A DNA stretch of 64,000 bases from Azolla caroliniana (taxonomy: Eukaryota > Plantae > Polypodiophyta): contig JBHGNT010000004.1 of the NCBI GenBank assembly GCA_043228905.1, forward strand, positions 5,642,001 through 5,706,000, given 5' to 3'. A program made the position numbers and the translations under genes. Shown here in pieces: positions 4,749 through 37,662 of this stretch. Positions within the stretch are counted from its first letter, which is position 1. Each line of letters begins with the position of its first letter. The notes under the pieces were generated by a model. That model was not told where the DNA came from. It did no database searches and was given only the letters and a program-made list of their open reading frames with translations.

Positions 4749-4784
<36 letters not shown>

Positions 4785-4964: not shown

Positions 4965-5013
<49 letters not shown>

Positions 5014-10122: not shown

Positions 10123-10188
<66 letters not shown>

Positions 10189-13100
10189 ACAAGCATGTAA
10201 AGAACTTTTAACATGGTGAAATCTTGTAAATAGAGTCCAAATTTATATAAATAGAGTCTAAATCGACAGCATATTTATATATTGTTGGGCTCGTGTAATG
10301 TGTATTGCTCGATTCAAGGAGATGAGTTTTCTCCTGTGACAACAATACTTTACATGAGGTAACCCCCTTCTCTAATCTATCATAGAAATCTTAAGCTGCC
10401 TCCATTGTAGTTCTGACATATTTAAAAAGATACCACAAAGAAATATCTCTCATTAAAATGTCATGCTGGAACTTACCAATGATCAAAATAAAATTTGATA
10501 TAAACTTGTACTATCCATGTTCACAATAAATATTTTAAAAACTCTTGAAAAATCTGTTTGCATTTGAATATCGATCTTGTCAAAAGCTTAGAGAAGACCA
10601 TTCACATCAAATATAAAGAGTTTCTCTCATCCTATATGTAACCATTCTAATCCAATGATATACATATTTGGGGTTTTATAATTTAGTCATGCAAGTTGCA
10701 ATGAACTCTTTCAAAATTCCTCTCAATGGTTTGGGGTTGTTGTGTCGAGCTTTATTGAAAGCTTCTTATGAATGATTGGGAAGTTTGAACAATAACGAAT
10801 TACTAGAAACTTTGTATGTTGATAACATTCCATTTAGAAAGCTGCACTACATATGGCCCTCCCTTTGTTCTCCATAAATGAAGATTTGTTTCTTCAAAAC
10901 AACATTAAATAAAAAAATTGTATAGTTTTGCTGGCATGCAAGGCTCCGTCCATTGAGCCTTGAGAATAATAAATGATGTTCACACACACACATAGATTGT
11001 AAGAGGGAAGAAAAAGAGGGCCTTGAAAATTAGGAAGGAGAGGAAACTGGATAAATGCACGGAGAAAAGAAATCACAACAAGATGGAGAATTTGTATTAG
11101 CAAAAATATTTCAGAAAAAAGAGAGTACAAACACTAATTATCTGGAGACAGATGGTTCACCACATGTCTAAAAAGTATCAATTATATTATAGGATGGGTT
11201 CAACAAAGTCATTGTAATTGGAGGAAGACCATGGAAACCTAAATACGTGTACTTGGGTTATAGACAAAGTCATGTAGGATAACGGTTTTGATGAGACTAA
11301 CTTGAACTGAAGTGGATGAAACCAATGTAAAGATAAAGATAACAAATACCTAGACAGTTGCAGCTCAGTCAGTAATACCTAGATAGTTCAAGTTAGTTTT
11401 GATGAAACTAACTTGAACTGAAGTGGATGAAACCAATGTAAAGATAAAGATAACAAATACCTAGACAGTTGCAGCTCAGTCAGTAAGGTTGTTCGGCAGA
11501 AACCAGGCTATTATGCATTCACCACTATATTCTGCAGTGGCATCTAGTAAACTAGTGCATATAGTGAGATTTGACTGTGTGCATGGGATAGTAAAAATCT
11601 GGCTTGCTACTAGTTATAGCCCTATGCAGGAAAAAGAAAAGAAAAGTAGCAAATCTGTTTGTGCTTTCGATGTTGGTGGCTATAGAAGAAGGAGTCTATG
11701 TATTTGTCATACCTGGAGTTGGAAACAGAATATCGAAAAGGCAAGCAAGTTCTACCTGACTTCGCTGGAAAACCATTTTCCTCTCTGTAAATTCTAATGG
11801 CTGATTGGAGACTTGGGTTTATAGCAGAGGCTCTTACATGCAAAGAGAAAGGATATTGTTGTGACTGGTATCACTTTATTTGTGAGGTGGTTGTATATAC
11901 AGATGAGATCCACCTTATTGAGGTATATACAGATGAGATTCTCTGTTGGGTGATGTTCTCTCATAAAATGCTTAAAATTACGTCAACAGTTAAAAAGCAA
12001 AAGTTTTAAAATTATTGTCATATTAGCTGTGATAGTACTTCTTGAATTCTGCTCAAAAACTTCCACATAGACCTCGGGTTTGCTCTTTCTAGCAGCATAT
12101 ACAATGGTTTTCTTCTTAATCATGCATAGGAAAGAACATTAGACTAGGAGAACTTTCACATCCCCTGTTGTTTCTTTTGTTCTTGTTTGTAGAGGATATA
12201 CACTTGGACATGATTTGTTTGATGGACCAATGGTGGCCTTCAGTTGTGAATGACTCATGAGTATAAATGCACTACCGCTGTTCCAATATAGCTTGGACTG
12301 TCCCCACCTAAATATGACCAAAGTGGAAGAGAATAGAGTGATCCGAACTGATATTATTAACTTGGAAAACAAGATAACATGGATCAGCCCCAAAATACCA
12401 CTTGGTACAAAGATGGCCCACTATAAGACACTTCTTACATACATCGGAAGATGGATTCGTCATCAGGCCACCTTATATGGACATACATCTATCCTATGCG
12501 TTGCGTAGTGTGATAGGGCAGCTAAGAACTTCATCACATCAGCTACAGATTGAGATAGGTAGATATACACGACTACCTCTAGAAAAGAGAATTTGCCAAA
12601 TGTGTCATGAAGGAGTGGAATCTGAGGAACACTATGTTTGTCATTGTAGTGTCTTTTATGAAATCAGAGGGAGATACCATTGCCTCTTTAAACAAGGCTT
12701 TGGCCCACTACGCAAGGTAATGGAATATGAGGACCAATGACGCCTAGGACTTTTCTTGCTAGAGCTCAAGAGACATTGGGAAAAGTTGTTGATGAATACA
12801 TCCACACAAGCTCATCCACAAAGAACAATCACAACTTTCTTTAGCCCCATCACTCCTACTAATCCTACGAGTCCATCACGGGATACACAAATGGGCTCCA
12901 GACCAGGACATGACAAAGGGGTTACAATTGATCGGGCAATAGCAATTTGCTGTGCACGTAGGCGCGGGCCGCCCCCATGAACCACGCCCTCGACAGATAA
13001 AAGCCATTATCTCCCGCCATCATAGGTGCTTCCCTTGCTTCGGAGACATTTCCATTCTGGATCGACCTATGTTAGAGATCTTTCGAAGGCAAAAGCTACA

Positions 13101-14526
13101 ATATACCTAACTTGAGAATCTCACGTGTGCCAAAAACCAGATTCCCTCGTTTCTTCTCTTTTCATCTTATTTACTTTTATATTTACTGTGTAGTATTTAT
13201 TTTATTTTGATTTGTTCTCAAAGACGAGACAACACTCAAGATGTAATCTCTTATTTGGTCTTATAGGCCATTTTGGCCTCTTAAAAGACGTTAATATATC
13301 TTTCTTCCTTCCGTCCTTTCTTTCTTGCTCTAAATTGTTTTCTTATTTGTTGGCTTATGGGTTTACATAAAGTGATTGTTCTTATTGTAGATAACAGAGC
13401 AGTCTTTTCTTCTTTCATTCAAGGGAAGTCCCTATTGGATGGCTCCGGAGGTATTATCATTTCTGCCCATGGTTTCAATTGCTAGGACTAATATAATTTC
13501 ATATAATAAACAGTTTCGCTGTCATGTATACAACATTGTAACTCCATTTGATATGTGGTTAATTCTGAAAGTGGACACATTGTCTCATTGAAGGTTATTC
13601 AGAACAAAAATGGTTATGATTTTGCGGTCGACATATGGAGTCTTGGATGTACAGTACTAGAAATGGCTACAGGCAAACCACCATGGAGTGAATTTGAAGG
13701 GGTAAAATATCTTCATTCATACCTACTCTAATGATTTTGAATCATCAACTTGAAATTCTAGACATAATTGAACTATCCCAATTAAAATAAAAACCAAAAT
13801 CATAGAGACACATGATTGAATGGCATTGTTGGTTGTTTTTTCATTTGCTAGATACTTTCTTTATTCATCTTCCATTTTTTCTGTTTATGTTGACATGTTT
13901 TAAACTTACAGATAGCAGCTGTTTTTAAAATTGGCAATAGCAGAGAGGTGCCAAGTATCCCGGAGTTCTTATCAGAGGATGCAAAGACGTTTCTGAGATG
14001 TTGTTTACAACGTGAGCCACGGGCAAGACCAACAGCTGCCCAACTTTTAGAGCACCCTTTTGTTAGATTAGTAGAAAGGTCCAACTCAAATGTATTATCA
14101 GAGGCACTACAGAGGTCTACTCTTAGGTCTCCAATGTCTCCAAGGTCACCGAGGCGAAGTGATACACAGCTGCATATGATCCGGTTTGGATCTGAACCTG
14201 GTCACTTTCAGCAAAGCAGCCCGAGGCATCAAAATTTCACTTTGTGGGATGGTATGCCACTGGTTCAAGATGGAGTGATTGGAGAGTCACATCCAATCGG
14301 GTTTGGAACTGAACCTAGCCACATTCAACATACTCCAGAGAGCAGCTCAAGGCACCGGAATGTTTCTTTGCGGGATGGTTCAGCTCCCATTCAATATACG
14401 CCGGAAAGCAGCCCGAGGCACCGAAACTTACCTTTGAGGGACGGTTTGGCTCCAGCACATGTACCTGTAGATGGTATGATACCTGGAGAGTCGCGAACAA
14501 TGCGATCCCCTCGACGGTATCGATGA
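5960..14526 (+). CDS. YDA: MAP kinase kinase kinase, YODA/MAPKKK-alpha (MEKK) type, ~756 aa, 10 exons
   Basis: Exons with GT-AG sites and consistent phases: 5960-6501, 7399-7627, 7714-8042, 8481-8568, 8665-8727, 8842-9002, 9949-10024, 13391-13450, 13594-13701, 13912-14526 (2271 nt). Kinase motifs: [90 protein letters not shown]-like N-terminal motifs: [25 protein letters not shown]. Orthology (YDA vs MAPKKK3) not proven. Confidence 0.92.
6750..6975. repeat. Diverged ~70-bp tandem repeat in MAP3K intron 1
   Basis: GAGATTAAAT(G)GAAA anchors at ~6751, 6821, 6893 and 6962. Confidence 0.6.
10125..10190. repeat. (CA)n microsatellite
   Basis: Seen directly. Confidence 0.95.
11289..11486. repeat. 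~110-bp tandem duplication in MAP3K intron 7
   Basis: ACTAACTTGAACTGAAGTGGATGAAACC...GCAGCTCAGTCAGTAA appears twice, identical. Confidence 0.85.
12200..13325 (+). mobile_element. 5'-truncated LINE (ORF2 C-terminus and 3' UTR) in MAP3K intron 7
   Basis: [37 protein letters not shown] matches the C-terminus of the intact ORF2. Ends GGCCATTTTGGCC..GACGTTAATATATCT followed by a TTTC-rich tail. Confidence 0.85.
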
Positions 14527-19287: not shown

Positions 19288-19630
19288 TGTAGAGATTTTG
19301 ACACAGGATACAAGATTATGGCAAACGGGAATTATGGAATAACTTGGAAAGCAATAAGAAATTGATTAACAAAATAGGCCAGTAAATACAACAACTAAGA
19401 GTGATGGATAAAAGAAGCAAGGATGCAGAGAGCACACCCAACAGGTTCCCCAACTTCCTCTTCATATAACAGAGGAAGTGGAGGGAAAAATGAGGTAAGC
19501 TTTTTGAAATACAACTAATATGAAAAACTGTTTTCTTTTACTAATAATAACTTGGGCTGTGGGGTTATATTTAGTAATTAACTAAGTAGTTGCTCACTGA
19601 CAACTAATTAGTTAATTATAACTTCTAACA
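19288..19630 (-). repeat. 3' LTR of Copia B
   Basis: Direct repeat of 27339-27680, about 17 substitutions plus 1 indel by eye. Confidence 0.95.
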
Positions 19631-22600
19631 ACCCCCCTTAACACCAACACCACACTTGAGGCCAATGTTTTGACAACATGACTAGTGTTTGAGAGAAGGG
19701 ACTGGTTTTGTCAAAAAATCAGCCCACATGGTAAGAGTGGGAGTATAACTAATATGCAAGACACCATTTTCAGATAATTCACACAAGAAATGATATTGAG
19801 CTTGAATATGCTTATTTTGATCAATGATTTTAGGATTCCGTGAAAGCTTTATGCATGATTGGTTATCACACCAAAGTTGAAATTCGGTTATGTGGATGAT
19901 GTCGAGTTTCGAAAACATTGATTGTAGCCAAAGTTCCTTAGCCACCAAAGTAGCCGCAATATATTTTGCTTCGGTGGAGGATAGTGCCACGATAGCTTGT
20001 TTCTTGGTTCTCCATGTAATGGCACCACCAGCAAAAGCGAAAACAAACCCAAATGTAGACCGAGATGTGTCCTTGTCACCCCCCCCAATCCGCATATGTC
20101 CATCCTTGAAGAACCACCATGTCTCGTTTAGAGGAAGGAGATAAGGCTTTATAGGTTAGTGTCATATCTCTTGAATATTTCAAGTAGCGGAGGACACGTT
20201 TCAAAGCTTCCCAATGACGAGGTCTAGGGTTCTCCATAAACCTAGATAAGAATCCTGTAGAATAGGATAGGTTTGGCCTAGTGCAGCTCACCAAGTATCT
20301 TAAACTCCCTAGAATATGGCAGTAGGGTATACTTTGCATGAAGGATTCCGTCTTCATTTGTAGAGATAGAGTCAGAGGTGGAGAGATGACAAGGGACTGG
20401 GAGGGGAGTGGCAATTGGAGAACAAGTCATCATATCATATTTATGCAAGATATTGTCAACTAGTTTGCATTGAGATACCGATAGAGTGCCAAGACTTTGA
20501 TTCCGGTTGACCTCCAGTCCAAGGAAATATTCTGGTTCACCAAGATGTTTGGTGCGAAAAGTTTGTTGTAAGTCGTTGACAAATTGAAGAATGTCGGCCT
20601 TAGAGGTGCCAACAATAGGAAGGTCATCCACATAGACACCCAAAAGAAGAAAATTGCGATCTTTCTTTCGAACATACAAAGTTGGCTTGGACTATAATTG
20701 AACAAAACTATTTGTGAGAAGAAATCTATGAAGTTTTGCATACCATTTCTTGGGAGAATGCTTTAAACCATATAATGGTTTGTGCAATTTGCAGACATTG
20801 TTGGGACGTAATTTGTCCTTCAAGAGTTATGGTTGCTCCATGTAGATTTCTTCCTTCAAATCTCCATGGAAGAAAGCTGTCTCAATATCAACATGATGCA
20901 ATTCTAAATTTAAGCAGGCAGTGATTGCAAAAAAAAGACGGAGAGAGGTGAGTTTGAGTGTAGGAGAAAAAGTCTCATGATAATCCACACACCGGGAATT
21001 TGAGTAAAACCCCTTGCAACAAGTTGTGCCTTAAAGTGAATATTCCCGTGGGCATCATATTTCTTTGTAAACAACCACTTACAACATACCACATTTGAGT
21101 TAGGTGGCTTTTGAACAACTATCCATGTGTGATTCTTGTATAATGCATCGGCCTCAACTTGTATTGCATCCAACCATTTGTCTTTTTCTGGACTTTGTAG
21201 AACCTGTCTTAGTGTAAGTATGGGAACAAATGCAACAGTATCATTTGTAACACATGAATGTAATGTAGAAACATCTGAATCTACAATAGATATGAAGCAA
21301 TTCTCTATCATATTTGTAGCATCATAGATTTCGTGTAGAGATCAAGTTTTCCATTTCTTTGTCTGATCTTGTGTTGATGTTGCTATCGATCGTGAGCAAG
21401 GTGGTGAGTTTGCCCAAGCATGTACTGCCTGCTTCCCAAGCATGAATCCCTTCCCATGTGGTCTTGTACTCGTTGCGATTCTTTGAGCATCCTTAATTGT
21501 TGTATCTTCTTCGGCACCATAAGGTTGTAATACTTGTATAGATGCTCCTCCATCCATATGTAAGGTTCCTGATGATGATTTACCTTCATCAAATAACCGG
21601 TCTTCATAAAATTTAACAGATCTACTATATACCACCTTACCAGTCTGTGAGTTGTAGATTTTGTATGCTTTCATGCCATTGGAGTCACCATATCCAATGA
21701 ATCTTCCTTTGAAAGATCGATCATCTAGTTTGGATTTGTGGTGCTCATGGACATACACATATGCAACTGCACCAAATACTCTAAGATGAGAAACATTAGG
21801 TGGATATCCATACCATAATGTAAAAGGGATTGCATTTCTTAATGCACTGTGTGAAAATCTGTTTTGCAGGTAGCAAGCAGTGGAGATTGCCTCCTCCCAA
21901 AAGTGTTGCTCCATGTGGCTAGTTTTCAGCATGCAATGAGTTGCATTAAGCAAGGTTCTATTTTTTCTTTCTGCCACACCATTTTGTTGTGGTGTGTAGG
22001 GGAATGTTTTCTAGTGAAGTATACCATTTTCTTGACAAAACTTCTCCCATTCATCAGAGATATACTCCCCTCCATTGTCGTTGCGAAGTATCTTGATGGT
22101 GATTGATGTTTGTTTTTTTGCATATTTTTTATACTTGCAGAATGCTGCAAATGCTTGATTTTTTTTCTTAATAAAGCTTACTAATGTGAATCTGGTAGTA
22201 TGATCTATGAAAGAAATGAAATACCTTGCACCAGATAAGGATGGTATCGGGAATGGTCCACATAGATCTATATGGACGAGTTGAAGTAGACGCTCTGTCG
22301 TTGTACAAATGTCCGTAATTGGTTGGTGTGTCATTTTCCAAATAGACAGCTTTCACACATGAAATCTGAATTGAAGATTTTGGATGGCAATCCTTGAACT
22401 CTTTTTAGTTGTTGGCATTGTTGTAGTGCTTGATAGTGTACATGCCCAAGCCGACAATGCCATGATTTAGTTAGTGAAGATATTTTCTTGTGATGTATTT
22501 GCAAGATTGCTGAGAATACATTTGGAGGATGACTTCGTATTGGATATAAGTGCTTCTCCTTAGGACTCACCAACTGTGTAGTTGTGTTTCCATTTTTGAA

Positions 22601-23205
22601 AAATAGAATTGTTTTCTCTTTACAGAATTGTATTATTAGTCCATCTACAATTGCTTGTCCAACTGATAACACGTGCTTAGCTAGTCCTGGTACATAATAG
22701 ACATTTGGGACTATAATCTTGTGATTACCTAACAATCTGAGTTGAATGCTTCCTTTGCCGATTGCCGTTTTCCGTCCGTTGTCTCCAAAAGTAACTGATA
22801 GTGGATTGGACCGAACCTGATAGCAATTTAACTAGTCCTTCCGATTGTGAGGTGATGTGTAGCTCCAGTGTCTAGGTACCATGTATCATGTTTAGTTTTT
22901 GTCTCTTTTGCAGTGACATGGTATGCTTGCAAAATATTGTCATCTTCTAGTATTTCATCTAAATCTCCAAATTCTGTGTATTCTTCTGACTTCGAGTTTG
23001 ATTTTTCTTCTAATGTTGCATTATTTGCTTGTGATTATCTTTTTTATTCCACAACTTGTTTGAATTGACACACCCTTTCTGTATGCCCTTCTTTCTTATA
23101 GTATCTGCAAATAAATTTGAAACCACCATTGGACTGTTTTGTTGAAGCTTTCCAAGCATCATTTACCTTGCTAGTACTTGATATTTCTGCACTTCTGTAA
23201 GCATT

Positions 23206-26200
23206 TGTTACTCCAAGGCTGGACTAGCCACTAACACAGGTGTCCTTCCGGATCACTTCACCAAAGGGGTGGTTGTGGTAAGGATTTCCGACTCCAATAG
23301 GCTTCAACCAGTTAACGTCTAGTGGAGATCCGACTCACAACACACAGTGTTACACGCGTAAGATCAACACATTAAACATAGGATAGAATAAAGATCAGAT
23401 AGACAATAATAACACGCTCTTATATTAATGTTCCGTCGTTCATACAATGATATCCGGATCCTTTTATAAGCATCCGGTCTGTGCTACAAAACGGTGCCTA
23501 ATCGACAATCGGCTATGAGTCCGTTCGGATCCAAATCAGCATACCTCTTCCGGATCCGTCTATTCCTAACATAATTCTTAGTTATTTAATTATATTTCTA
23601 GGAACCAGCTCGCCTCTTCCTCCGTTCGTACTTGGCCGCCATTGGCCAACACATGGCACGCCCGTGGGACAATACATTGTACGTCGAACCCACGGGTTAG
23701 CTCCACTATTCTTCATCAAGTATGTCCAGAATGCTCTGGTCAAGAGGTTTGAGGGGTTCCTCGCTTTGCCGCTCTTGCTCCGGCGCTTGCTGATGTGGCT
23801 CCTGCCTTCCTTCCTTCCTGCTGCGGCTATTGCGTCTTCTCTAGCTTCATCTGTTCTCAGCTTCGCTCTTGCCGCTTCCGGCTGCTCCTGTTCGACTTCT
23901 GATGGCTATTCTGGTACGGTCTCTCCTGGTTGATCCATTCTAGCTTCATGTGGCTGCATTTCTCTGGCTCCGGCTGGATTTGGTGGTTGCTTCGGAGATT
24001 GCTCTCCATCACTTATGTTGATTGTCGTTTTCCTTTGCGACGCCTCCTGCCGTCTATGCTCCCGTTCGAATCGCTCGAATTGGAGTTGAGTTCAGAGCTG
24101 GTCATCATCTAATTGTTCCACTAACCGTCTTACAACCGCTAGTTGTTCTCCTGCCAGGGACAAAAAATTGTCCGATGTAACTCTTCCCGGATGGTTACAA
24201 TACTCTCCGCATCCATCTTATAGAAGTTGTCACTGTCCTTTCTCCAGTTATCAGCATCCACTCACAGATTCTGTAATTCCGCCGCCTGTTGTGCCCATTT
24301 TGACCACCATTGCACCGAGCTTTCATCAATTATACTCTTTGTCCTTGCTTTCCATGCTACCACAATGGCGCGGATCTGGTCGAGCCCAATCTTGGATTTG
24401 TCCTCCGCGGCATGCTTTTCCTCTTTTAACTTCTTTATCAGGCCCACGGTTGCCTGTGGTTGCACCCCATATTCCAGCAATTGAGTATGATAAGTTGTCT
24501 GAACCCTATTCAGAGCCAAATTTGCTCGTTCCATCTCTTCATAGTGCTGTCCGGTGAGCACCGTCCTTTCCCTTGCTGCTTCCTCTAGCAGCTTTGCCGA
24601 CTCAACTGCCTTAGTTCGTTCTTCCGCTAACGCCTCTGTTTTCTTGGTTACCTCATTCCGGAGTTCTCTAATCTTCTCTTGTGGCTAGCCACATTCCGCC
24701 ATCAACTTCTTGTGCTCCGCTCCACATCGAAGTGCTTGTGATCCCGATGCAGTCTTTCAAAGTCCTCGATCTTCTGATTTAACCTCTGGTTGATTTGACT
24801 TCTTGCTCGGTCTTCTTTGTCTTTCTGTTGTCGGAGGTCTTCTTTCAGTTGTTCAATCTCTCCTTCTGCCATCAGGCGCAACTTGTCTTTCTCTTGTAGC
24901 AGTTTGTCTTTTTCCTCTTTTAACTAGTCGTTGGCTGTCTGAGTCTTTTGAAGGTTTTCTTCTATTTTCCGCTTCTCCTCCTCCGTTGTCTTCTTTTGCT
25001 CCCTTTCTCTGGTTCACAAGGCCTCCTGAGCTGCTAACTCCTCCCTTAGGGTGGAGAGTTCCTGCTCTCGTGCATTATTGCTTTCTGGTTCTATAGAAGC
25101 CACCGATTCAGTGCTTGTTTGTAAATTAACCGGTGCCACCGGTTTTGATATAGTTGGCCTGGTAAAGACGTCCCTGGCCGTGTTTGCCTTGGCCTTCTCT
25201 AGGTCTTCCTCCAAGCTCCCGATTCGTGTCCGGGCCTTCTCCAATTCCTCGGTGGTGATGAACAACCGGTCCCATTGCACATTTTCTTCTTCTTCTATTC
25301 GGCTCACCACCCCAGCCACCTACTCTCTGATTCAACGCGGCCATTCACTACCGGTGCCTTGTTGTCTCGCCGGTTCCGGTTGTGGTGCCGGCTTTGGTCT
25401 CGCCTCAAACCTTTGTTGTACTGTTGGCTCTGACAACAATTCCTATTCTTGCTGCACCTGTCGACGTGGTGAGATGTGTAGTTTTGTCACCGGTTCTGGT
25501 ATAACCAGTGCCACCGCTTCTAGCCGAACAAGCCCGGTCTCCTGCCTTGGCTCTCGTCCCTTGGCGCGGGGAGTTGGTGTGCTGTCCTTGTCCGAATCCG
25601 ATCTGTCCCCATGCTCCTCCGCGTCGCGTCTTCGCTGGTGCCGTTGGAGATTGTCGGCGGGTTCTTCGTCCAACTCCTCCTCCTGGGTTTCAATGTTAAT
25701 CTTTTGAGCCAAGGTGGGTGGCTCTTGCACTTGCTGGCACAGTTTTATTTTTAGGGGCTTCACTGATAGCTTCGTCGGTGCCTCCTTCTCCGCCTGCTAT
25801 TTCCGGCTTGGTTTTTCCTTTTTCGCCTGTGTTGACGGTTCCTGTTCCTTTTGTGCCGATCTTCCCTCTAACCATCCCGGAGTGTGCTTGGCGAGGAGTT
25901 GTTGCCGCTTAGATGGCTTGGTGAGCGTTGTTTTCGTTGTTTGAGCCCACTTCCTGTCTTTTATGGCTAATACCGGGGGTGCGAGAAGGGTGAGCCACTT
26001 CGCTACCACGGTCCAGACCTTCTTTCCATCCACAATCGATTGGATGACCGCTCGCAATGAATCAGCAGTGATCACCGGCCAATCCACTCGAATCCCATCG
26101 TGGTCACCAAAAAGTGTTGTATGTTTTAGGGTTAGGGTTAATACTTATGATAATGATAAAGATAGGAATAGGGTTTACAATGATGGTAGATTGATAATGA

Positions 26201-26557
26201 AGATGTGTGTTGATGACAGATTGATGACAAATATTACGAGGTGATAGCGAGATTGATAAGCATTGCGGGGTGGGGGGTGGTGCCTAGAATGGCTCCACCC
26301 CCCTCCCAAGGGGTTTCAACGTAAGGGAAGAGAGAGAGAGAAAGAGAGATGACAAGAGAGAGAGAGAGAGATTCTGAGAGAACTATTTCTTTATTCTTCA
26401 TTCATTCCCCCTCAGATATTCACACCAATCACTCACTCACACCTCCTCGTATCCGTACACATACGTAAGTACTCACACTCACAATTACATTTACACATAC
26501 ACATAAATGACATTATAACATTCCATCCTCGCTCTCCGTACATCTCGTACGGTAACA
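23206..26557. mobile_element. Insertion C: 3.35-kb non-autonomous LTR-type element in Copia B gag, with a degenerate coiled-coil ORF on minus
   Basis: Termini TGTTAC...GTAACA. Flanks GCATT/ACATC both derive from GCATC by one transition; removing the insert plus 5 bp restores the gag frame (RYRAKSD-AYRSAEISS). Minus-strand ORF pieces 26087-~23700 are E/K/R-rich. tRNA-complementary sites at 23654 (+) and 26109 (-). Confidence 0.75.
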
Positions 26558-27338
26558 ACATCTGATTTAGCTCTATATCTATTATTATAAGATGATTTTT
26601 GTGTTTTGCTAAAAGATGCAGTCATTGCCAAAGACAGAGTGGATTCTTTAAATTGTCATCAAAGTTTTTCATGGCGGATCTTGGTAATCAAATTAGACAA
26701 AGAAATACCGTGGCTATTCATGGTGACAAATGTGCTCCAAGATTCTGGAAATTTACTCAATAGCAGCCCAATCTTCATTTCTTCTGAGATTTTGTTTCAC
26801 ACAATGGTGGCTTCTTCGAGATATGTCTCCCAGGTTTCCAAGAAGGTAAGAACATCTTCTTCTTCCTGCAAAACACACATGTGAAACAGGGTAGCAAGAG
26901 TATGGATTCTAGTAGTTACACCATCTTGTGGTTCAAACATTTATTTTAGTTTGGACCACATTTCTGCTGTAGTTGTGAGTTTTCGAATGGCATTAGCTTG
27001 CTTGTCTTCTACATGTAGCATTATTTCAAGCTTTGCCCGTTTGTCTTTGTTTTTCCAATCTTTCCATGCTTCTGATTGTGTATTTTTCGGTGCTTGACAA
27101 GTTCCGGTAGTGACTTGAAGTAGCTCTTCTAGATCAAGTAGTAACTCCACCCTTGGTTTCCAAATTCTGTAGTTCTTTCTAGTAAGTTTATCTACCGAGT
27201 ATTTCCTTGTCTGAGTGGAGCTTGCCATAATGCTAAGGTGGTTGTCTTTTTGCTATGTATATATATATTTGAACAACAAAAGTAGTGTATGGAGCGGGTG
27301 ATATTTCTAAGCTTCGTACTACTGGCGCTCTGGTACCA

Positions 27339-27680
27339 TGTAGGATTTTGACATAGGATACAAGATTATGGCAACTAGGAATTATGGAATAACTTGGAAA
27401 GCAATAAGAAATTGATTAACAAAACAAGCCAATAAATATAACAACTAAGAGTAATGGATAAAAGATGCAAGGATGCAAAGAGCACACCCAACAAGTTCCC
27501 CAACTTCCTCTTTATATAGCAGAGGGAGTGGAGGGAAAAATTAGGTAAGCTTTTTGAAATACAACTAATATGAAAAACTGTTTTCTTTTACTAATAATAA
27601 CTTGGGGTGTGGGGTTATATTTAGTAATTAACTAAGTAGTTGCTCACTGACAACTAATTAGTTAATTATAACTTCTAACA
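27339..27680 (-). repeat. 5' LTR of Copia B
   Basis: Direct repeat of 19288-19630, adjacent to the PBS. Confidence 0.95.
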
Positions 27681-28980: not shown

Positions 28981-29404
28981 TGTTGAGCGAACAAGCTCAA
29001 CCAGATCCGTATCGGCTGAACAAGGCAGAGCTGGATCGGAGTCCAGAATGAAGAACCGGTTCGGATGGTATCTAGAACCAAGAGCCGGATAAGATGGTAA
29101 CCAGTAGGCTGTTAGAGGCCTACGAATCTAGCTTAGTACGTAGGTATATTCTTTGGAGTCAGTGTCAGTCACTCGTATGAGCATTGAAGTACTTGTCAAT
29201 ACTTCTGTCAGTCCGTGTAAGGACTTGTATAAAAGTGCTCTCTAAGCACATTCTATGTACATAGTGTTATTATCTTGAATTGAGTTTGTTCTGTTATGAT
29301 CTCTCAGTCTCTTCCATGTACGGTTTCCATTAAACCTCTGCATGTATTCTTTAGTTATCTGGATGAGCTGGTTGTCTTAGCTTCCGCAATCGTATTCTTT
29401 TATA
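28981..29404 (+). repeat. 3' LTR of Copia A
   Basis: Starts TGTTG right after a purine tract and has TATAAAA at ~29228. Ends where Gypsy RT sequence begins (29405). Partner LTR is absent. Confidence 0.65.
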
Positions 29405-31990
29405 GTGCCCTGCCACTACATCCAACACTCCATTCATAACGGTTGTTGCGTTTAGCTTGCGATAGTTGACACAAACCTATATTTGGCCATTTTTCTTCGG
29501 GACGACGACAATAGGGCTTAACCATGTTGCCCTCTTGACTGGCCGAACGAACCCCACTCAGAGAAGTTTGTCGATTTCCTCCTTTACTTGGCATCATAGT
29601 TGGGGTTCATTCTATAGCGGTGTTGCTGTATCGGTCGTGCATCATGCTGAAAATGAATTTGGTGCTGATAGTATTGAGTATCTATCCCCTTCATGTCGAT
29701 GTACGACCAGGCGAACACATCTTGGTATTCCACGAGCCACCCAACTTTAAATGTTGAACGTTCATCGGAAGCCAGTTCCTTTGCAATTTTTAGGGTGCAT
29801 GGGTCGGTGGTGGAGCCGAGATTGATCTCCTCTAGTGTGGACGCCTTCACACATTTAGAAATAGCCGGTTCATGTTCTAACGAATCTCGAGCATGCCATA
29901 ATTCTTCGATGGACTTCGGATCAAGTTTGTGGTGGATATCTTTCTCTTCGTTAGTTGGTTCAGAAACATAAGGTCCGGCCGCCGTGAGGACATCGATTTC
30001 AAACAGGGGGACAATTATCGGGTGTTCCTCCAGGAAGTGGTCAACTTCCTCGTCGGCGAGTCCATCGAGGATGTGGACACCTTCCGCATATAACGGACTG
30101 GTGTCTTGTGGGCTAGAGATCCGTTTCTCCTTGACGACATGAACATTGGTTTTCCCGTGCCGAAACGAGATCATATTCCGCTGCCAATGTTGCTTGATGT
30201 TGGCCATGCGCAACCACGAACGATTGAGTAGCATCGGGTAGGCATCAGGAGCATCAAGGCGTAACACTAGTAACCGCCGAAATTGTGAAGGTGTGGCCCC
30301 CTAGAATAAAGTCGAGGTAACGAATTAAACCCATTGGTCTGACAGAATGGGTATCGGCCGTTGGGAGCCAAAACGGGCATGGATCCCATTGGGTGATACC
30401 GAGGTCATGGCATGTGGCCTTGTTGATGACGTTGACACCTGATCCACTGTCGATAATGCATTCGTGAGCGTTCCGTCCGTTGATTATGAGTTTAACCACG
30501 GGGTTTTGGGAATCCATTAATGGTGGGCTGGCCCCCATCTCGGCAAGGTGAACGGGCAGAATTGTCGGCTCTTTGCCAGAAGTTAGGGATGCCACCGTAT
30601 CCTTGAATTGTGGGAGTAATTGGAGAAGCTTATGGAAGGGCATGGATATCTAGTAGCTCGTGAGTGCATGCCAAACAGGGTCATCGTCCAACGACCCGAT
30701 GGGTTGTGAGGAGGCCGAGGTACCGATAGTGATAACCTTCATTTCGGTATGCATTCGATCGATGTTGGCGTTATTTGCTTGCTCGATCCACTCCTTTGCA
30801 GTTTGCCAGACGTCATCCTGGATTTCCCATTGCGTGTGTTGGGCCTTACTTCATGTGGTGACCTGCTGGACTTCAGCTGTAATTATATTCATTGCATGTG
30901 CTTTTCCGCGATCATTTGTCGGGCATTGTGTGGCATAATGTCCTGGTTGGTTACAATTAAAACACGTCATTGGCACTGGGTTGCTCGGTTCCCCTTGCTC
31001 GAATTGAGATGTTTGATACGGCTGGGAATTCTCCTCTCTGGCCGGAGAGGCGTATCGTTGCATTCGGTGGGGGTCTTCTCGAGGCTCGGTGTGAGGAGGT
31101 GTTCGGCGATGGTTTGGACACGGGGGATCCCAATGTCGGTTATCTAGATTTCGTCGATTATTGCCCGGTGGCCGAGGACCCCGATTATTATGGGAAGGCC
31201 GTCGATCATGCCGTTGATACCTTGGTTCATAATAGTCGTCCCGATTGTACTCATATTGGTAGTAGTCATCGGCGGGGTGATAGCGGTCTTCTCTGTATCA
31301 GTATCGGTTGCCCTCAGGTTGAGGCCTATTGTCCGGCCGGTAACGTTCTTCCTCGAGTCGGTACCTATTATCCCGACGATAGCGATCGTCCTCAAGCCGA
31401 TAACTTTTGTCACAGCCATTTCGGTCTGCATTCCAGGGCCGCTCGGAATCACGATTTCGGGGAGGTGGACGATCATCCTTTCGAGGGCGATTGTTGTGGG
31501 GCTCGATTTGATGGGCGGGAGCAATAGCGGTGTGGTTAAGCATATTGTATTAACATTGCTCTACCATATGTAGCCGGGAATGGCAAATCGGATAGTGTGG
31601 TCGATGAGGGCAATCCACAGCCGAGTGGCCGAAATTGGAGCATGCCATACACTGGAGAGCCTGCCAGAATTGGGTTTCTTCTGTTAGGAAACCGGATGTG
31701 GAGTACCCGGCTACGGAAGACCCGGTGAGAACCGGATGACGAGTACCCGGCTACGGAAGACCCAGTGAGAACCAGATGACGAGTACCCGGCAAGAGCTGG
31801 ATGGTGAAGGCGCGGTGAGAAGTGCTCACCAGATGAAGGGACATATTCGTAAATATGTTTTCTGAGAGTCCATCGGGGCTACATTTGTAAATAGCCGAAA
31901 AGTCATATTAGTATAAATATGACTTAGGGTAAACTTAGAGTAAGTTGTTGTTGTCATTCTTGTTGGCGCAAGATTAGAGCGCAACAGTGT

Positions 31991-32231: not shown

Positions 32232-35200
32232 TTATTTCCACCCAAGCCTCTCGAAAAGAAGTGGGGGGTCAAAGGGTCTTGATGTGGGTTCCAATGTAGA
32301 GAGTGCCCTAGCCATGGCTTCTAGGCGGTGTAGCTCACGTTCCCTTATTTTCAATATTGCTTCCACCTCACGTTGAGTTGCTTTGAAACCCGACACCCGA
32401 GGACGTCTGGTTCTTCTCTGGTTTTCTGCCTCATCAATGGAAAGGCCGAGTGGTGCAAGTGTGTCGGCATTCGTTGTCTCCTCAGGTTCCTGAAAAACTG
32501 CATTTGTTACATGTTCGTGATCATTAGCAACATTATTGTCAACATTTTGTAATTTATTCTCTCTGTGTTGTTTTAGCTCTAGAATGTATTTGCCTAATTT
32601 CTTTATATCTAGCGTATCTAATAGTTTGGGGAGGGTGGGAGACGGACCAAGTATGTCTTGGTATTTTGCCCTTATCTCGGCATAGGTTGGACACTTGCAT
32701 GTAAAGTGGTACTCATCCTCTATCTCTATGTGACATAACCTACATATCCTTTCCTCCCTAGGGACTCCACTAGTACGGCCATTTTCAATCTCAAGTTGGT
32801 GAGATGATATTCTAAGTTGTCCAATGGCACCCCTTAGTGCATGTGGTAAGAATACATCTAGATATTTTGGCCGCGTGATAAAACCTAACTCAGAGAAGTG
32901 CATGAAGTGTTTCTTATAGTACGACATTTTAGATGGGAGTGGCTCTAGTGGGGTGATCCATTTACACCGAGTGTAAATTTGCCATATTTCTTGGCGTATT
33001 ACTTTATTGCGGTTCTCATGAGAGATTAAGGTGTTATCACTCGTGTGGTTGTACCTAAGGGGAGGTAGGTTATTAATGTCTAGACCATTCGCGAGAAGCC
33101 AAGTCATCATCATGCCATACCATGAGCTAGTATAGCCGTACTCATACAATGATCGAGAGGCCTTAAAGGCTTGATGAGATATTCTATCATGTGGTTGGCT
33201 ATGTATCCTATCAATAAAGACTACAAGTTGAAAAAGTGCCTCTACTAGCATTGGGGGTAACGTGAACTCGGCCCTAATAATGTCATGTGGTACAATCGAT
33301 TTGCTTCGGAGTTGGCGTGATAGCATCATCACCAATGGTCTCTCTAATTGCGTCCACATGAAGGATGGTAATCCTGGAGCCCAAACCGCTGATGCATACA
33401 TGAGGGAGGGGGTCACTAATGAGTCAAAGAGCCACCCTTTAGTCCGTGGCTCTTGAAAGTGTGCTTGGTGGCATTGTCTCTCTAGGAGCAAGAGGGATGC
33501 ATGTCCTCTCGTGAGTCTATCCTTCGCTGCCTGTGTCATCGAAAATTTACCTGAGCGGGCACTAAAAGTGACTCCGAGATAGACGTACGATCCAACCACC
33601 TCGACTGGGCTATGGGAGATAGTTAGGTGACACTTAGCTCTAACTTGGGCCGATGTGTGGAAGATAAGGACTTTCGTTTTCCCTAGATTCACTACCAATC
33701 CTCGTTGTACACAAAAGTCATCTAAGGCATTAAGGTGCCTCTGTAGGTCGTGTTCGGATTCAGAGAGCAAAACTATGTCATCCGCATAGAGCAAGATACG
33801 AACCTGCGTATCCCCAAGGACCACTCCGGTGCCTCCCTCACGAGCAATAAAATCTGTGATCTCATCAATGTAGATCCCAAAAAGCGTTGGTGATAGGGGG
33901 CAACCTTGTTTTACACCAATAGTGCTAGTGAAACGATTGGATAGGCCACCTGGGCATCGGACACACCCGGACACTTGTTCATATAATGCGTAGATGGCCC
34001 ATACCATATCATCTGGTATCCTCAAGCTTTTAAGTCTATCAAACAACCGATCTCTAGGGACTGTGTCAAAGGCTTTGCGGAAGTCCACAAAACAACAATA
34101 TAATCTCTTCTTGCGAGCCTTAGTTTGGTCAATTAGGCATCTAAGTGTGAAGATGTGATCAATAGTGGAGAAGGCTCGTCTAAAGCCAGCTTGTTCAGGT
34201 GCACGAAGGTTTAGGGTCTCCATGTAGTCGCTAAGCTCTGCTTCCATTACTGCACCATATAACTTAGCAAGGGTATGGCCTATCATAATGGTCCTATATA
34301 TATTTGGGCCCATGGGGTCCCCCCCTTTATGTATGGGGGCCACTGTATTCATAGTCCACTGTGGTGGAAAACCCTCCGCAAGGGCACAATTGAAGATTAG
34401 AGTTAGCAAGGGAGCTAGGCACTCTCTCGCATATATAATGTGTTCTGCTCGCAATCCTGTGTGGTCCATGGACTTCCTATGTTGTAATTTCTTTATGACC
34501 TTCATGACCCTAGAGGTCGTGAAAAGTGTCCCCGTGGTAGGCCGGGGTGTGGAAGGCATTGGAAAAGGTGGTTGGTTTGGGATTTGGTAAAGTCTCTTTG
34601 TATATGTCTGCCAAGTTTCGGGATCTTCGATGGGTGTTTGTGGTCTTGGCTCTCGTAGTCTCTTCCATGCCGTGGCGCAATCGCTACTCATGAGCATATG
34701 GTAGAGTTCCCAGTATTGGGATGCCTCCCACGCTCGTCTCTTACGACGTGTCATCTTACGCATTTCTTTGCGAGCTTGTATGGAGGTAATACTACCATTG
34801 AGTTGCGATACTGTAAGTTGTCTATGTAGGTCCCTACAATCCTCGTCATACCATTTATTTTGTGGCATTGATCCTGATCTACCTTGATTTGAGTGTTTTG
34901 TATATGGGAAACTCCTAGCTGCTGCGGAGTGAAGGATGTGTGTGAGTTTTGTACTAAGGCTTTCTAATGGTAGGGAGGGATCAATGGAGGGGAGATGGGC
35001 CTGAACATGTTGAGAGTATATGTCAGAGAGCTCATGTGTGAAATGTATTGTGGTGTGATGGCATGGTTGACTAGACTTGGTGACCTTAGAGATATCACAT
35101 TTTAGCTCGAAGTATAAGAAACTATGGTTTGCGCCAATAGGGCATGGGGCCACTCGGAAGGAGTTAATCATGTGGGTAGCTTCCGGGCGCCCTATTAGAT

Positions 35201-35963
35201 AGTCAATTGTGCTTTCCCCTCCTCCATGTGGGAAACATGTGAGCTCTTCTGAGCCCGGCCACTTAGCTAAACCATTATATATGACCATCTGGTGCCGACT
35301 GCCAAGTTCGAGCAGATGATGGCCAAAGCTCGTGGCGTCCGCACCTTGATCCTTTGATCTACGTGTGGTGCCTATGTCTAAAGGATCAACATTTACCATT
35401 TCTAGGTTTCTATTCATCTGAAATACTGTGCATTGTCGGGATTGGGTTCTCGCATTGAAGTCTCCTACAAGAAATACTTCTCCTTGGGAAGAATATCGGA
35501 TTATGTCATCCGATAGGGGTTCGTATGGAGAAGGCCCATGTGGCATTCCTTCATCGACTAATCTCGTCACGCCACTAATATTATAACGGGATCCTTTTGG
35601 GGGAAAGTAACAAATGGCGAAAAATACTGCATGGTCTTTGCTTGTGGAGACTTTCACCCACATAAAATGAGCTTCTGGGTCTATCTTCATTATTTCTATC
35701 CTATTATGTAGCTCTTTACGAAATAGTATCACGACACCTCCAGATCCCCTAGTAGTGTGTCGACGTGAGGTTTGTCTAAAAGCGGACTCCCAACGGAATC
35801 CTTCGACCCGTGGGAGTCCTCTATTTGGGCTCTGATGTGTTTCTACCAAGAAAAGTATATCAGATACCTTTAGTATCTCCTCTAGGCGGCCGGGGTGTGC
35901 CCAGAGTGCGCCATTATAATTCCATAGGGTCATCCTAAGTGCATTTTCTGTCACATGGGCCAC
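32232..35963 (-). CDS. LINE ORF2: APE endonuclease, reverse transcriptase and C-terminal Cys/His domain
   Basis: 1243-codon ORF. EN motifs ILFLVETH, GDFNART, STIDY. RT motifs QAGFR, FVDFRKAFDTV, GVKQGCPLSPTLF, LLYADDIVL. C-terminal CRLC..EDEYHF.CKCPTY. First ATG at 35933. Confidence 0.93.
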   Translation of the reverse strand: MAHVTENALRMTLWNYNGALWAHPGRLEEILKVSDILFLVETHQSPNRGLPRVEGFRWESAFRQTSRRHTTRGSGGVVILFRKELHNRIEIMKIDPEAHFMWVKVSTSKDHAVFFAICYFPPKGSRYNISGVTRLVDEGMPHGPSPYEPLSDDIIRYSSQGEVFLVGDFNARTQSRQCTVFQMNRNLEMVNVDPLDIGTTRRSKDQGADATSFGHHLLELGSRHQMVIYNGLAKWPGSEELTCFPHGGGESTIDYLIGRPEATHMINSFRVAPCPIGANHSFLYFELKCDISKVTKSSQPCHHTTIHFTHELSDIYSQHVQAHLPSIDPSLPLESLSTKLTHILHSAAARSFPYTKHSNQGRSGSMPQNKWYDEDCRDLHRQLTVSQLNGSITSIQARKEMRKMTRRKRRAWEASQYWELYHMLMSSDCATAWKRLREPRPQTPIEDPETWQTYTKRLYQIPNQPPFPMPSTPRPTTGTLFTTSRVMKVIKKLQHRKSMDHTGLRAEHIIYARECLAPLLTLIFNCALAEGFPPQWTMNTVAPIHKGGDPMGPNIYRTIMIGHTLAKLYGAVMEAELSDYMETLNLRAPEQAGFRRAFSTIDHIFTLRCLIDQTKARKKRLYCCFVDFRKAFDTVPRDRLFDRLKSLRIPDDMVWAIYALYEQVSGCVRCPGGLSNRFTSTIGVKQGCPLSPTLFGIYIDEITDFIAREGGTGVVLGDTQVRILLYADDIVLLSESEHDLQRHLNALDDFCVQRGLVVNLGKTKVLIFHTSAQVRAKCHLTISHSPVEVVGSYVYLGVTFSARSGKFSMTQAAKDRLTRGHASLLLLERQCHQAHFQEPRTKGWLFDSLVTPSLMYASAVWAPGLPSFMWTQLERPLVMMLSRQLRSKSIVPHDIIRAEFTLPPMLVEALFQLVVFIDRIHSQPHDRISHQAFKASRSLYEYGYTSSWYGMMMTWLLANGLDINNLPPLRYNHTSDNTLISHENRNKVIRQEIWQIYTRCKWITPLEPLPSKMSYYKKHFMHFSELGFITRPKYLDVFLPHALRGAIGQLRISSHQLEIENGRTSGVPREERICRLCHIEIEDEYHFTCKCPTYAEIRAKYQDILGPSPTLPKLLDTLDIKKLGKYILELKQHRENKLQNVDNNVANDHEHVTNAVFQEPEETTNADTLAPLGLSIDEAENQRRTRRPRVSGFKATQREVEAILKIRERELHRLEAMARALSTLEPTSRPFDPPLLFERLGWK

Positions 35964-35969
35964 ACGCCG

Positions 35970-36782
35970 TCAGTTAGTAGTGCGATCATTTATGATCACT
36001 CGCCCATCTCGGTAAAAGGCGCGATGGCCTTCTTTACGAGCTTGCATAACTCGTGGCATACAACTCTTGCGATGCTCAATTTGCATCTTAGTGAGGTCTT
36101 CATCGAGATAGATGGGGTCCCCATCCATTCCTCGAAGGATTGGTCTCTTCTTAAAGAAAGTGATTCTAGAGTCTAAGTCTTTAAATTGAAGGACTAAGGC
36201 TCTCTTCCTAGTTGTGTCACGCCCGGCCCTCCATGCTTTGGTGATAGGTAGGGCCTCTGTGTACCCTAACATTTTCCCAAGTGTTTGTGCGTCCTCATTT
36301 GGGGATGCACCTTCCTTGAGCCCAGTGACACGTACATTTAAGCGTCGGGCCTGACGCATTTTCTCTTCTTCAAGGGTGGTATTAACAATATTTTCATCTT
36401 TTATTTCTTTTTTAATGTTTCTTTTAACCACATCTACCCAACCCGTTTTAGCTAACTCTATGTTATTATTAACTTCCTCTTTAACTTTTTTAATTTCGTC
36501 CTTTATATCCTCTATAGAGGATATTTCACCGTCTTCTCGAGATACCTCGATGTCCTTAAGTTGTTTTTTAAGGTCGATGTTTTCTACTTTAAGTTGTTCT
36601 ATTTCGGCCTTGAGGGCGTCTTTTTCCTCTCTATCTTTTTTCTTGTGGGTTTCGGTGTCTTTCACCCATTTTTTCATATCCATCTCTATTTTTGTTAAAC
36701 GATTAAACATATCTAAAAAGTCCTCCTTACTTATAGCCTCGTCTTGTATATCCTTAAGTTCCTTAGTCCGTCTAGACGTCAT
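35970..36782 (-). CDS. LINE ORF1: coiled coil plus RRM/CTD-like nucleic-acid chaperone
   Basis: 270 aa from MTSRRTKEL. Coiled coil followed by RRLNVRVTGLKE ... IYLDEDLT, typical of L1/CR1/L2-type ORF1. Confidence 0.85.
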   Translation of the reverse strand: MTSRRTKELKDIQDEAISKEDFLDMFNRLTKIEMDMKKWVKDTETHKKKDREEKDALKAEIEQLKVENIDLKKQLKDIEVSREDGEISSIEDIKDEIKKVKEEVNNNIELAKTGWVDVVKRNIKKEIKDENIVNTTLEEEKMRQARRLNVRVTGLKEGASPNEDAQTLGKMLGYTEALPITKAWRAGRDTTRKRALVLQFKDLDSRITFFKKRPILRGMDGDPIYLDEDLTKMQIEHRKSCMPRVMQARKEGHRAFYRDGRVIINDRTTN

Positions 36783-37337
36783 TGTGGTGTCAATAAGAAA
36801 AAAAAAGGTAAAATAAATGGGTTCGAGACTTAGCCGAGTTTGTGTGTGTGTCGCAATCACATCGGCATTTTGTAGCACGCGACAAGCACACCAAAAGAAC
36901 CCACCCACGAACTCGTCAAGAAAAAGGCACTTCACCACATCAAGAGAAGACGGAGAAGAAAACACCCCGTGACGGCGACGGTGACGGTGGTAGTCGTCAA
37001 ACGACGGCAGCAGACGGCAGACGGCGACAACAGACGGCAGACGGCGGCAACAGACGGAGAGAATGAGATGAAGAGTTCATATCTCTGTTGTAACCGCCGT
37101 GGACTGCCGTGGTTTTTCCCGTGTTTGGGTTTTCCACGTAAACATTATGTGTACTCTTCTCTCCATTGTGTCGTGCATTCATTCCCGTTTTCTGTGTTTG
37201 ATTCTAAGCTTGGTTGTGGCCGAGCGTTGTTCATCGGGAGCGTGTAGTTCCTGACATCTTCGTGGGTTGGCAAGGTGTTCTTGAGTGATCCCATTGAAAA
37301 CGAGGTATTATGCTCAATTCTGTCGACATCAAGGATG

Positions 37338-37662
37338 TGTTAAGAATACCTGTTTACACCACAAATGATAAAACATGAGTTATGAGGATAAAGACAAAAT
37401 ATGAGTTACAAAACACAATAAGAAAAAGACAAAACAACAGTTACAAAGAAGTAACGGCTAGTTGTTACTTCTTTGTATATATATATATGTATGAAGTATT
37501 GTTTAGAAATGAGTGTGATACTACATGTACAGTTTTCTATAGGTTCTTACATTGTAATACACCTATCTTAATATAATATCTTACCTTGTTCTACATTCTT
37601 TGAAAACTCTCTCTCGTTCTCTGTTGTCAATCCAACCCATTATGTTCTGAACTTTTCTTACA
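37338..37662 (+). repeat. 5' LTR of Copia D
   Basis: Direct repeat of 42828-43124, with ~26 extra bp. Confidence 0.93.

What the first reader, a model, noticed from the sequence alone, without database searches (positions are those of the whole stretch)
23206..26557. Integrase-type insertion with two dissimilar ~445-bp ends, each followed by an inward-facing tRNA primer-binding site
Seen: the element has TGTTAC...GTAACA ends and a reconstructable 5-bp TSD (GCATC; removal restores the host gag frame), so it appears to have inserted as one unit. Its terminal blocks (23206-23651 and 26115-26557) are similar in length but show no similarity by eye. Each block ends in ..CAACA and is followed by a tRNA-3'-complementary sequence pointing inward: TGGCACGCCCGTGGGAC (+, 23654) and TGGTGACCACGATGGGATTCGA (-, 26109-26088; the + strand reads TCGAATCCC...CACCA, a tRNA T-arm and CCA end). 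The left block has its TATAAAAGG on minus, so on that strand a tRNA-sense sequence ending in CCA sits where a polypurine tract should be. Established: LTR elements normally have identical LTRs, one PBS and one PPT; both motifs resemble Arg-tRNA PBSs of Tat/Ogre Gypsy lineages. Inference: this is either a non-autonomous family using tRNA priming on both strands, a template-switch chimera of two elements that was still integrated, or a very long solo LTR with internal rearrangement.
Basis: partly seen in the sequence, partly recalled or inferred. Interest (0 to 1): 0.8.

Follow-up and report, generated by a model that had tools for sequence, protein, structure and literature searches.

The report
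Hybrid retrotransposon with two tRNA sites
This insertion joins the front end of one plant jumping-gene family to the back end of another, likely through a one-off slip during reverse transcription, and related elements carry a copy of a tRNA's tail where the usual second-strand primer signal should be, so host tRNAs likely start both DNA strands.

Summary
(1) The dissimilar ends are a hybrid. Read on the minus strand, the 3,352-bp insert is the 5' LTR and 10-nt primer site of one family (B), joined at 26097-26100 to the last three quarters of an extra ORF, a tRNA-end cassette and the 3' LTR of another family (A). Empty sites confirm one insertion with a 5-bp duplication. None of 24 listed contig pieces crosses the junction, and relatives on both sides continue into other sequence. 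The junction lies in tRNA register, which fits a plus-strand strong-stop DNA of B jumping onto the minus strand of A (inferred). Such a copy is predicted to be a dead end. (2) The two inward tRNA sites are a clade feature. Related paired-LTR elements have a tRNA CCA end two bases from both inner LTR boundaries and no purine tract before the 3' LTR, so tRNA priming of the plus strand is likely but unshown. The scan reported this cassette three times before on other DNA of this genome (unreviewed notes); nine literature searches did not find it.

The parts
23201..23205 (.). Left copy of the 5-bp target-site duplication (GCATT; empty site GCATC)
23206..23651 (-). Block L: 3' LTR of family A (starts TGTTGG, ends GTAACA on the minus strand; TATA-like motif at 23468-23462)
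   Evidence: inner end homologous to L007 (z 5.4)
23654..23693 (-). 40-nt tRNA-end cassette at the polypurine-tract position: T-arm 5' strand and loop, a 13-nt insert, T-arm 3' strand, acceptor strand and CCA, 2 nt before the LTR; predicted plus-strand primer site
   Evidence: identical in L007 while the flanks differ
23706..26099 (-). Broken extra ORF of family A (coiled coil; stops and frameshifts), lacking about the first 190-245 codons; stop codon 13 nt before the cassette
26088..26100 (-). Chimeric junction (26097-26100) and the ORF stretch that continues in tRNA register
   Evidence: hand comparison with the tRNA fragment in PMC3221849
26100..26109 (-). 10-nt primer-binding site of family B (TGGTGACCAC), 5 nt after the LTR
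26115..26557 (-). Block R: 5' LTR of family B (starts TGTTAC, ends CAACA on the minus strand), with a G/C hairpin near 26268-26313 shared with related LTRs
26558..26562 (.). Right copy of the target-site duplication (ACATC)
19288..27680 (-). Host Ty1/Copia element (LTRs 94.8% identical, perfect ATTAT duplication); the insert sits in its gag

Best explanation
The insert is a hybrid of two related LTR-retrotransposon families that went in as one unit, likely made once when a plus-strand strong-stop DNA of family B jumped onto the minus-strand DNA of family A, and both parents likely belong to a Gypsy clade in which a second host tRNA replaces the polypurine tract. Shown: one insertion with a 5-bp duplication; L, cassette and ORF end occur together in an independent copy; R belongs to an LTR group whose primer site continues differently; a sharp junction at 26097-26100; tRNA CCA ends two bases from both inner LTR boundaries in paired-LTR relatives. 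Inferred, step by step: (1) RNAs of A and B were packaged in one particle. (2) In each, a tRNA primes the minus strand at the short site after the 5' LTR. (3) The minus-strand copy of the cassette is a two-part tRNA-binding site (17 nt, a 13-nt loop, then 10 nt against the T arm), so a second tRNA primes the plus strand two bases before U3. (4) B's plus strong-stop DNA copied about 18 nt of its primer tRNA, of which only 10 match B's own site. (5) Its tail instead paired with a chance tRNA-like stretch inside A's extra ORF, and synthesis ran on. (6) The linear product had B's U3 end and A's U5 end, both TG...CA, and integrase inserted it. With two different R regions the copy is predicted to be unable to reproduce its own structure.
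For: Single insertion: empty-site joints skip 3,352 + 5 bases in 4 of 4 runs. A side: L007 has an L-like LTR end, an identical cassette and the same ORF end at 74% identity over 660 bp. B side: contigs that share R leave the window sequence at 26100 (10 contigs in X1, 15 in X4). Junction: 9 of the 24 listed pieces reach 26088-26096 from the ORF side, all stop there, and 7 of them run on for 10-107 unlike letters; summed contig depth in X1 steps from 779 to 5,742 to 22,473 over 26080-26124. All 9 homologues that hold this motif read A-[TA]-[YF]-E-G where the window reads G-D-H-D-G, so the ORF is cut at the primer site. By hand against the Arabidopsis tRNA-Arg(CCG) fragment printed in PMC3221849: positions 1-10 match 9 of 10, positions 11-22 match 8 of 12 (P = 0.003 at random), and family B's own tail matches 2 of 12. 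In Ty3 the first plus strong-stop DNA carries a tRNA copy, is displaced and accumulates in particles (PMC5371799, passages). Clade feature: the short inverted site, which was not part of my search pattern, lies 2 nt before an LTR at 10 places in 9 of 14 loci (8 exact). The longest purine run in the 50 nt before the 3' LTR is 3 at 19 of 19 sites. Orientation: TATA-like motifs only on the ORF strand in L and in 3 of 3 related LTRs tested; a Gypsy remnant in the window has the same 10-nt site followed by a gag-like frame on the same strand.
Against: No whole genome was held, so single copy is not proven: one search lists 24 of 2,712 pieces, short-read contigs break at repeats, and several of the 9 pieces are probably the same genomic copy seen in different runs. 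No element with pol and the cassette together was in my hands. Family A's 5' end and family B's 3' end were not seen, and the 14 loci are a third family group only distantly related to R (0 of 14 carry B's site). The loci were chosen by the long cassette pattern, so its conservation among them is partly by selection. R has no TATA-like match on either strand, and the Gypsy remnant's LTR has matches on both. The cassette also folds into a hairpin on the RNA strand (96 of 96 cells pair), which fits the self-primer rival. The organism's own tRNA set was not available; the tRNA used for comparison is from Arabidopsis, and the same 10-mer also begins a human tRNA-Trp site (PMC4724089). No priming step was measured.
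Confidence: 0.6

Rival explanations
1. Same hybrid, but the plus-strand primer is the element's own RNA: the cassette folds into a tRNA-like hairpin ending in CCA, survives RNase H and primes like a polypurine tract.
For: It folds at -17.8 kcal/mol with the last 7 nt and CCA free. All 96 cells pair on the RNA strand, with one two-sided change and variation otherwise through G-U pairs. The stem extends 3 bp beyond the tRNA-like part.
Against: The fold is only modestly better than shuffles (z -1.9, -0.8, -1.9) and covariation is not beyond the control (60 of 500 shuffles). A self-primer needs no match to a host tRNA, yet the cassette keeps the T-arm sequence seen in a real plant tRNA-Arg and, in family C, the same 10-nt end as the minus-strand site.
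Confidence: 0.2
2. The hybrid arose at the DNA level: either two finished cDNAs were joined by microhomology before integration, or nested copies recombined and deleted after integration.
For: The window is a stack of nested elements, and chimeric non-autonomous elements with LTRs from other families are reported in sugar beet (PMC13570524, passages).
Against: One 5-bp duplication abuts both outer ends, which a deletion between nested copies would not be expected to leave. Joining at random would not be expected to fall at the end of the 10-nt primer site and continue in tRNA register.
Confidence: 0.1
3. The orientation is the reverse: the long site is the ordinary minus-strand primer site, the ORF is antisense, and the short inverted site (or the G-run 19 nt before the LTR) starts the plus strand.
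For: The long site looks like a canonical 17-18-nt primer site, and an AAGGGGGG run lies upstream of the short inverted site. Antisense extra ORFs are common in Ogre and Retand (PMC6317226, supplement 3).
Against: The G-run is not adjacent to the LTR, whose start is fixed by the outer end in L005, so even this reading needs a tRNA-like end at both boundaries. TATA-like motifs and the gag-like frame after the short site point the other way. Two unlike LTRs joined at the short site are simply made only if that site is the plus-strand transfer point.
Confidence: 0.06
4. The 3.35-kb unit is itself a mobile family with two different ends, or the solo LTR of a very long-LTR family.
For: All parts are repeated in the genome (depth in 30 of 30 bins), and the outer ends are a perfect 6-bp inverted repeat.
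Against: No listed piece crosses the junction, and both sides continue into other sequence in other copies. The ORF is cut mid-domain and carries stops and frameshifts. No joint linking the two outer ends is among the 15 listed (196 not shown).
Confidence: 0.04

Closest known systems
Plant non-chromovirus Ty3/gypsy, OTA superclade (Athila, TatI-III, Ogre, Retand; Neumann et al. 2019, PMC6317226)
   Same: TG...CA LTRs, 5-bp duplication, tRNA-Arg-type primer site (dominant in Ogre and TatIII, 30% in Retand; supplement 3), a long extra ORF whose N-terminal part resembles Transposase_32 and ATHILA ORF-1 clusters (scores 0.86 and 0.85, leads only).
   Different: No polypurine tract before the 3' LTR; a tRNA-end cassette instead. 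This copy has LTRs from two families and no gag or pol.
Ty3 and Ty1 plus-strand strong-stop DNA with a partial tRNA copy (review PMC5371799)
   Same: Short genomic primer site; the first plus strong-stop DNA copies part of the tRNA, is displaced and accumulates in particles. This is the molecule the junction model needs.
   Different: In Ty3 it is a dead-end product and the plus strand starts from a purine tract; here it appears to have been captured by another family's cDNA and integrated.
Retroviral second-strand transfer through the tRNA copy (HIV-1; review PMC13191261)
   Same: The plus strong-stop DNA copies the 3' 18 nt of the primer tRNA up to m1A58, with minor products reaching position 55 or 54, and transfers by that copy.
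   Different: There the copy matches the genomic site perfectly and both LTRs come out identical.
Chimeric non-autonomous LTR elements (sugar beet TRIMs, PMC13570524)
   Same: Non-autonomous elements reshuffled between families, attributed to template switching.
   Different: Those are described as elements with additional LTRs from another family; the passages I read give no junction at a tRNA-like microhomology and no tRNA end at the PPT position.

Membership tests
LTR retrotransposon (canonical structure) | TG...CA ends and a 4-6-bp target-site duplication | tested here: met
LTR retrotransposon (canonical structure) | Two near-identical direct LTRs | tested here: not met
   L against R is at shuffle level; paired LTRs are present in the relatives L002 (86% over 441 bp) and L004 (79% over 583 bp)
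LTR retrotransposon (canonical structure) | tRNA primer-binding site after the 5' LTR | tested here: met
   26109-26100, 9 of 10 against a published plant tRNA-Arg(CCG) end
LTR retrotransposon (canonical structure) | Polypurine tract before the 3' LTR | tested here: not met
   longest purine run 3 in 50 nt at 19 of 19 sites
Ty3/gypsy OTA superclade | RT-RH-INT phylogeny and domain order | not testable with these tools
   no pol in the insert or found in L001-L014; no genome held
Tat clade (Ogre, Retand, TatI-III) | Additional archaeal-type RNase H | not testable with these tools
   no pol available
Ty3/gypsy OTA superclade | Extra ORF with a plant mobile, Transposase_28 or Athila ORF-1 domain | tested here: inconclusive
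   no Pfam family above its cut-off in 12 of 12 homologues; language-model leads under 0.9 to Transposase_32 and ATHILA; structure model too poor (mean pLDDT 50)
Mobile non-autonomous family (LARD/TRIM type) | Many copies of the same overall structure with independent target duplications | tested here: not met
   0 of 24 listed pieces bridge the junction (2,688 not shown)
Long solo LTR | The whole 3.35 kb recurs as a terminal repeat | tested here: not met
   copies diverge from the window at the internal junction on both sides; no genome for a full search

The most novel reading that the evidence does not exclude
An abundant plant Gypsy clade has dropped the polypurine tract and primes both DNA strands with host tRNAs, the second on a two-part site in minus-strand DNA, and this hybrid is a fossil of its plus-strand transfer step that fixes which site starts which strand.
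Probability: 0.5. Interest if true: 0.85.

Novelty: new variant of a known kind. Interest (0 to 1): 0.62.

Why it matters
Plus-strand priming from a purine-rich scrap of the element's own RNA is treated as general for retroviruses and LTR retrotransposons (PMC5371799, PMC7197481, passages). A successful, high-copy clade that puts a tRNA end there instead would be a new priming route, testable in vitro, and would be mis-oriented or missed by tools that look for one primer site and one purine tract. The hybrid itself is a dead end, but it is a rare record of an intermolecular plus-strand jump between families. It suggests that the families share particles and that integrase accepts mixed ends, and it gives evidence on orientation that does not depend on finding pol.

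Tried and rejected
Whole-genome search: none held; the loci lie in no held genome. ARAGORN found no tRNA gene in the window and Rfam gave only 4 weak unrelated matches. Viral contigs gave nothing, prokaryote genomes nothing, and the protein-based metagenome scan nothing. No RNA holder was listed, so expression is untested. AlphaFold of the ORF homologue was too poor to search. Circular permutation of one L+R LTR was dropped: R-like LTRs are complete units flanked by tRNA sites on both sides. An early idea that the long site is the 5' primer site with an antisense ORF was dropped after (kept as a rival). The rest of the Gypsy remnant at 43124-44481 could not be followed to a 3' LTR. Literature: 9 searches (terms on two or inverted primer sites, missing polypurine tract, tRNA-primed plus strand, non-identical LTRs, fern/Athila, and the motifs themselves); no listed title or abstract start describes a tRNA end in place of the PPT. 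The library lacks most subscription journals. Supplement 1 of PMC6317226 (element list) was too large to read and may bear on this. Earlier-finding look-ups by sequence and by nearness were empty.

Full report
Setting. The window is plant DNA (Alliinase_C and kinase exons, Copia, LINE and Gypsy remnants); I did not determine the species, and no whole genome was held. The insert at 23206-26557 lies in the gag of a Copia element at 19288-27680 whose LTRs are 94.8% identical and whose own ATTAT duplication is perfect. The insert is therefore younger than about 5% LTR divergence, and its two end blocks cannot have drifted apart in place.

L and R align no better than shuffles in either orientation. 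The duplication is real: in 4 of 4 runs laid, paralogues of the host skip exactly 3,357 bases, and the joint 23201 to 26559 reads GCATC. The two mismatches are transitions at CHG sites created by the element's ends (read from the sequence); two mismatches in five would otherwise have P = 0.024 at 5.2% divergence.

The inside is one broken ORF on the minus strand. Searches found 12 near-full-length homologues of up to 1,117 aa and 310 representatives at E up to 0.001, mostly fragments. The window matches them from 26111-26099 down to 23930 in three frames and ends in the same LDILDEE motif, 13 nt before the left tRNA motif. About 190-245 N-terminal residues are missing. No Pfam family passes its cut-off in 12 of 12 homologues. 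The missing N-terminal part gives weak language-model leads to Transposase_32 and ATHILA clusters (0.86, 0.85).

The junction. Laying contigs on 25900-26330 shows a sharp step. Nine of the 24 listed pieces come from the ORF side up to 26088-26096; all stop there, and seven run on for 10 to 107 unlike letters. Some are probably the same genomic copy in different runs. From the LTR side, 10 contigs in X1 and 15 in X4 leave the window sequence at 26100 and continue into a different tail. Summed depth in X1 goes from 779 to 5,742 to 22,473 across three bins; the tool warns that this is no copy number. No listed piece bridges the junction, but 2,688 pieces were not shown. The other inner boundary is native: L007, an independent copy 74% identical over 660 bp, has an L-like LTR end, the identical cassette and the same ORF end. 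So the insert is LTR-B plus a 10-nt primer site, joined to ORF, cassette and LTR-A.

The junction is in tRNA register. PMC3221849 (one passage, Table 1) prints a 33-nt Arabidopsis tRNA-Arg(CCG) 3' fragment. Compared by hand with its complement, the window's 22 nt match at 17: 9 of the first 10 and 8 of the next 12 (P = 0.003 for 8 of 12 at random; 10 of 12 if two likely misread bases in the printed fragment are allowed). Family B's own tail matches 2 of 12. Positions 14-22 are ORF sequence in other copies, so the ORF happens to hold a tRNA-like stretch, and the break fell on it. Such stretches are expected by chance somewhere in a long element; what is unlikely is the break falling there in register. 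The caveats are that this is another plant's tRNA and that the same 10-mer begins a human tRNA-Trp site (PMC4724089, one passage).

The clade feature. A scan of metagenome contigs for the long left motif returned 14 loci. In 10 of 14 the LTR is homologous to the core of R (26268-26367, 72-87% identity); whole-LTR alignment gave z 6.1-7.5 for R and 0.5-2.2 for L against 6 of 6 LTRs. One LTR end is followed after 2 nt by the long motif, as selected. The other end is preceded, again at 2 nt, by GGGCGTGCCA or a one-base variant at 10 places in 9 loci; this was not in the search pattern. In the other 5 loci no such LTR end was found. Outer ends lack the motifs, as seen in L005 and L013. Family B has the corresponding tail beside a different tRNA end. 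Whatever the orientation, both inner LTR boundaries abut a tRNA CCA end. On the ORF strand the 50 nt before the 3' LTR hold no purine run over 3 at 19 of 19 sites. The cassette's T-arm part is the same GUGGGUUCG seen in the published fragment; that its acceptor part is another arginine tRNA is recalled, not tested.

Orientation. TATA-like motifs occur only on the ORF strand in L and in 3 of 3 related LTRs tested; R has none on either strand, and the LTR of a Gypsy remnant at 43929-44481 has them on both. That remnant has the same 10-nt site followed by a gag-like frame on the same strand, but I could not show that it belongs to the cassette clade. The hybrid adds an argument: unlike LTRs joined at the short site arise simply if that site is where the plus strand transfers. 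I therefore read the short site as the minus-strand primer site and the cassette as the replacement for the polypurine tract.

Mechanism. In canonical elements the plus strong-stop DNA copies the primer tRNA's 3' end and transfers by it (PMC13191261 and PMC7197481, passages). In Ty3 the first such DNA carries 12 nt of tRNA copy, is displaced and accumulates (PMC5371799, passages). I infer that such a molecule from B, whose tRNA tail matches only 10 nt of its own site, paired with the tRNA-like stretch in A's minus strand and was extended, giving B's U3 end and A's U5 end for integrase. I put the hybrid origin at about 0.9, its formation during reverse transcription at about 0.8, and host-tRNA priming of the plus strand at about 0.55-0.6 against about 0.2 for a self-made hairpin primer (full pairing but covariation within the control). 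These are judgements, not computed values.

Comparison and novelty. The parts fit the OTA superclade by primer type, duplication length and extra ORF (PMC6317226: passages and supplement 3 read, supplement 1 not readable), but membership is untested without pol. Chimeras between non-autonomous families are known (PMC13570524, passages; PMC6894440, three passages). Nine searches found no description of a tRNA end replacing the purine tract (listings only for papers not named here; PMC5381547 passages were irrelevant). I reached the clade reading and then saw that three unreviewed notes on other pieces of this genome say the same; they are not independent support. One claims gag-pol on the strand opposite the long site, which agrees with my orientation but which I could not check.

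Verdict. The two-different-ends insertion is most likely a one-off and not a new kind of element. The clade it comes from is a real departure from the standard design. Novelty: new variant of a known kind. Interest 0.62.

Noticed in passing
window 43124-44481 and 29400-31560 (minus): A Gypsy remnant (LTR 44481-43929, 10-nt primer site at 43924, gag-like frame, zinc knuckle, protease) that appears to be split by a Copia (37330-43124) and a LINE (32232-37076); its 3' end was not found.
   Followed up: partly
window 26268-26313: G/C hairpin in the LTR (z -3.1), shared with related LTRs and carrying the highest summed contig depth of the stretch (about 650,000 in X1); a candidate packaging or dimerisation signal.
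   Followed up: partly
L001, L002, L004, L008: Apparently non-coding 2.2-2.6-kb units in tandem, sharing LTRs that are flanked by tRNA sites on both sides; in L002 the next unit carries the extra ORF beside an R-like LTR, so the ORF travels with more than one LTR type.
   Followed up: partly
L008:4757-4795: A cassette variant beside a different LTR end, with a different sequence after the first 18 nt; possibly a further family.
   Followed up: no
window 32232-37076 (minus): LINE with a 1,245-aa open endonuclease-RT frame and a 368-aa upstream frame; looks young.
   Followed up: no
window 37478-37980: The left LTR of the second Copia holds four tandem 100-bp copies, against one in its right LTR (43044-43124).
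   Followed up: no
window 48129-48854 (minus); 8785-14526; 61989-62213: Host gene exons: Alliinase_C (TAA1/TAR-like by recall), protein kinase and Na+/H+ exchanger matches.
   Followed up: no
window 2034-2359: Two short repeats that look tRNA-derived by eye (SINE-like) after a GT/GA microsatellite.
   Followed up: no
window 12877-13330 and 62831-63290: A 450-bp repeat pair, 75% identical and 50 kb apart.
   Followed up: no
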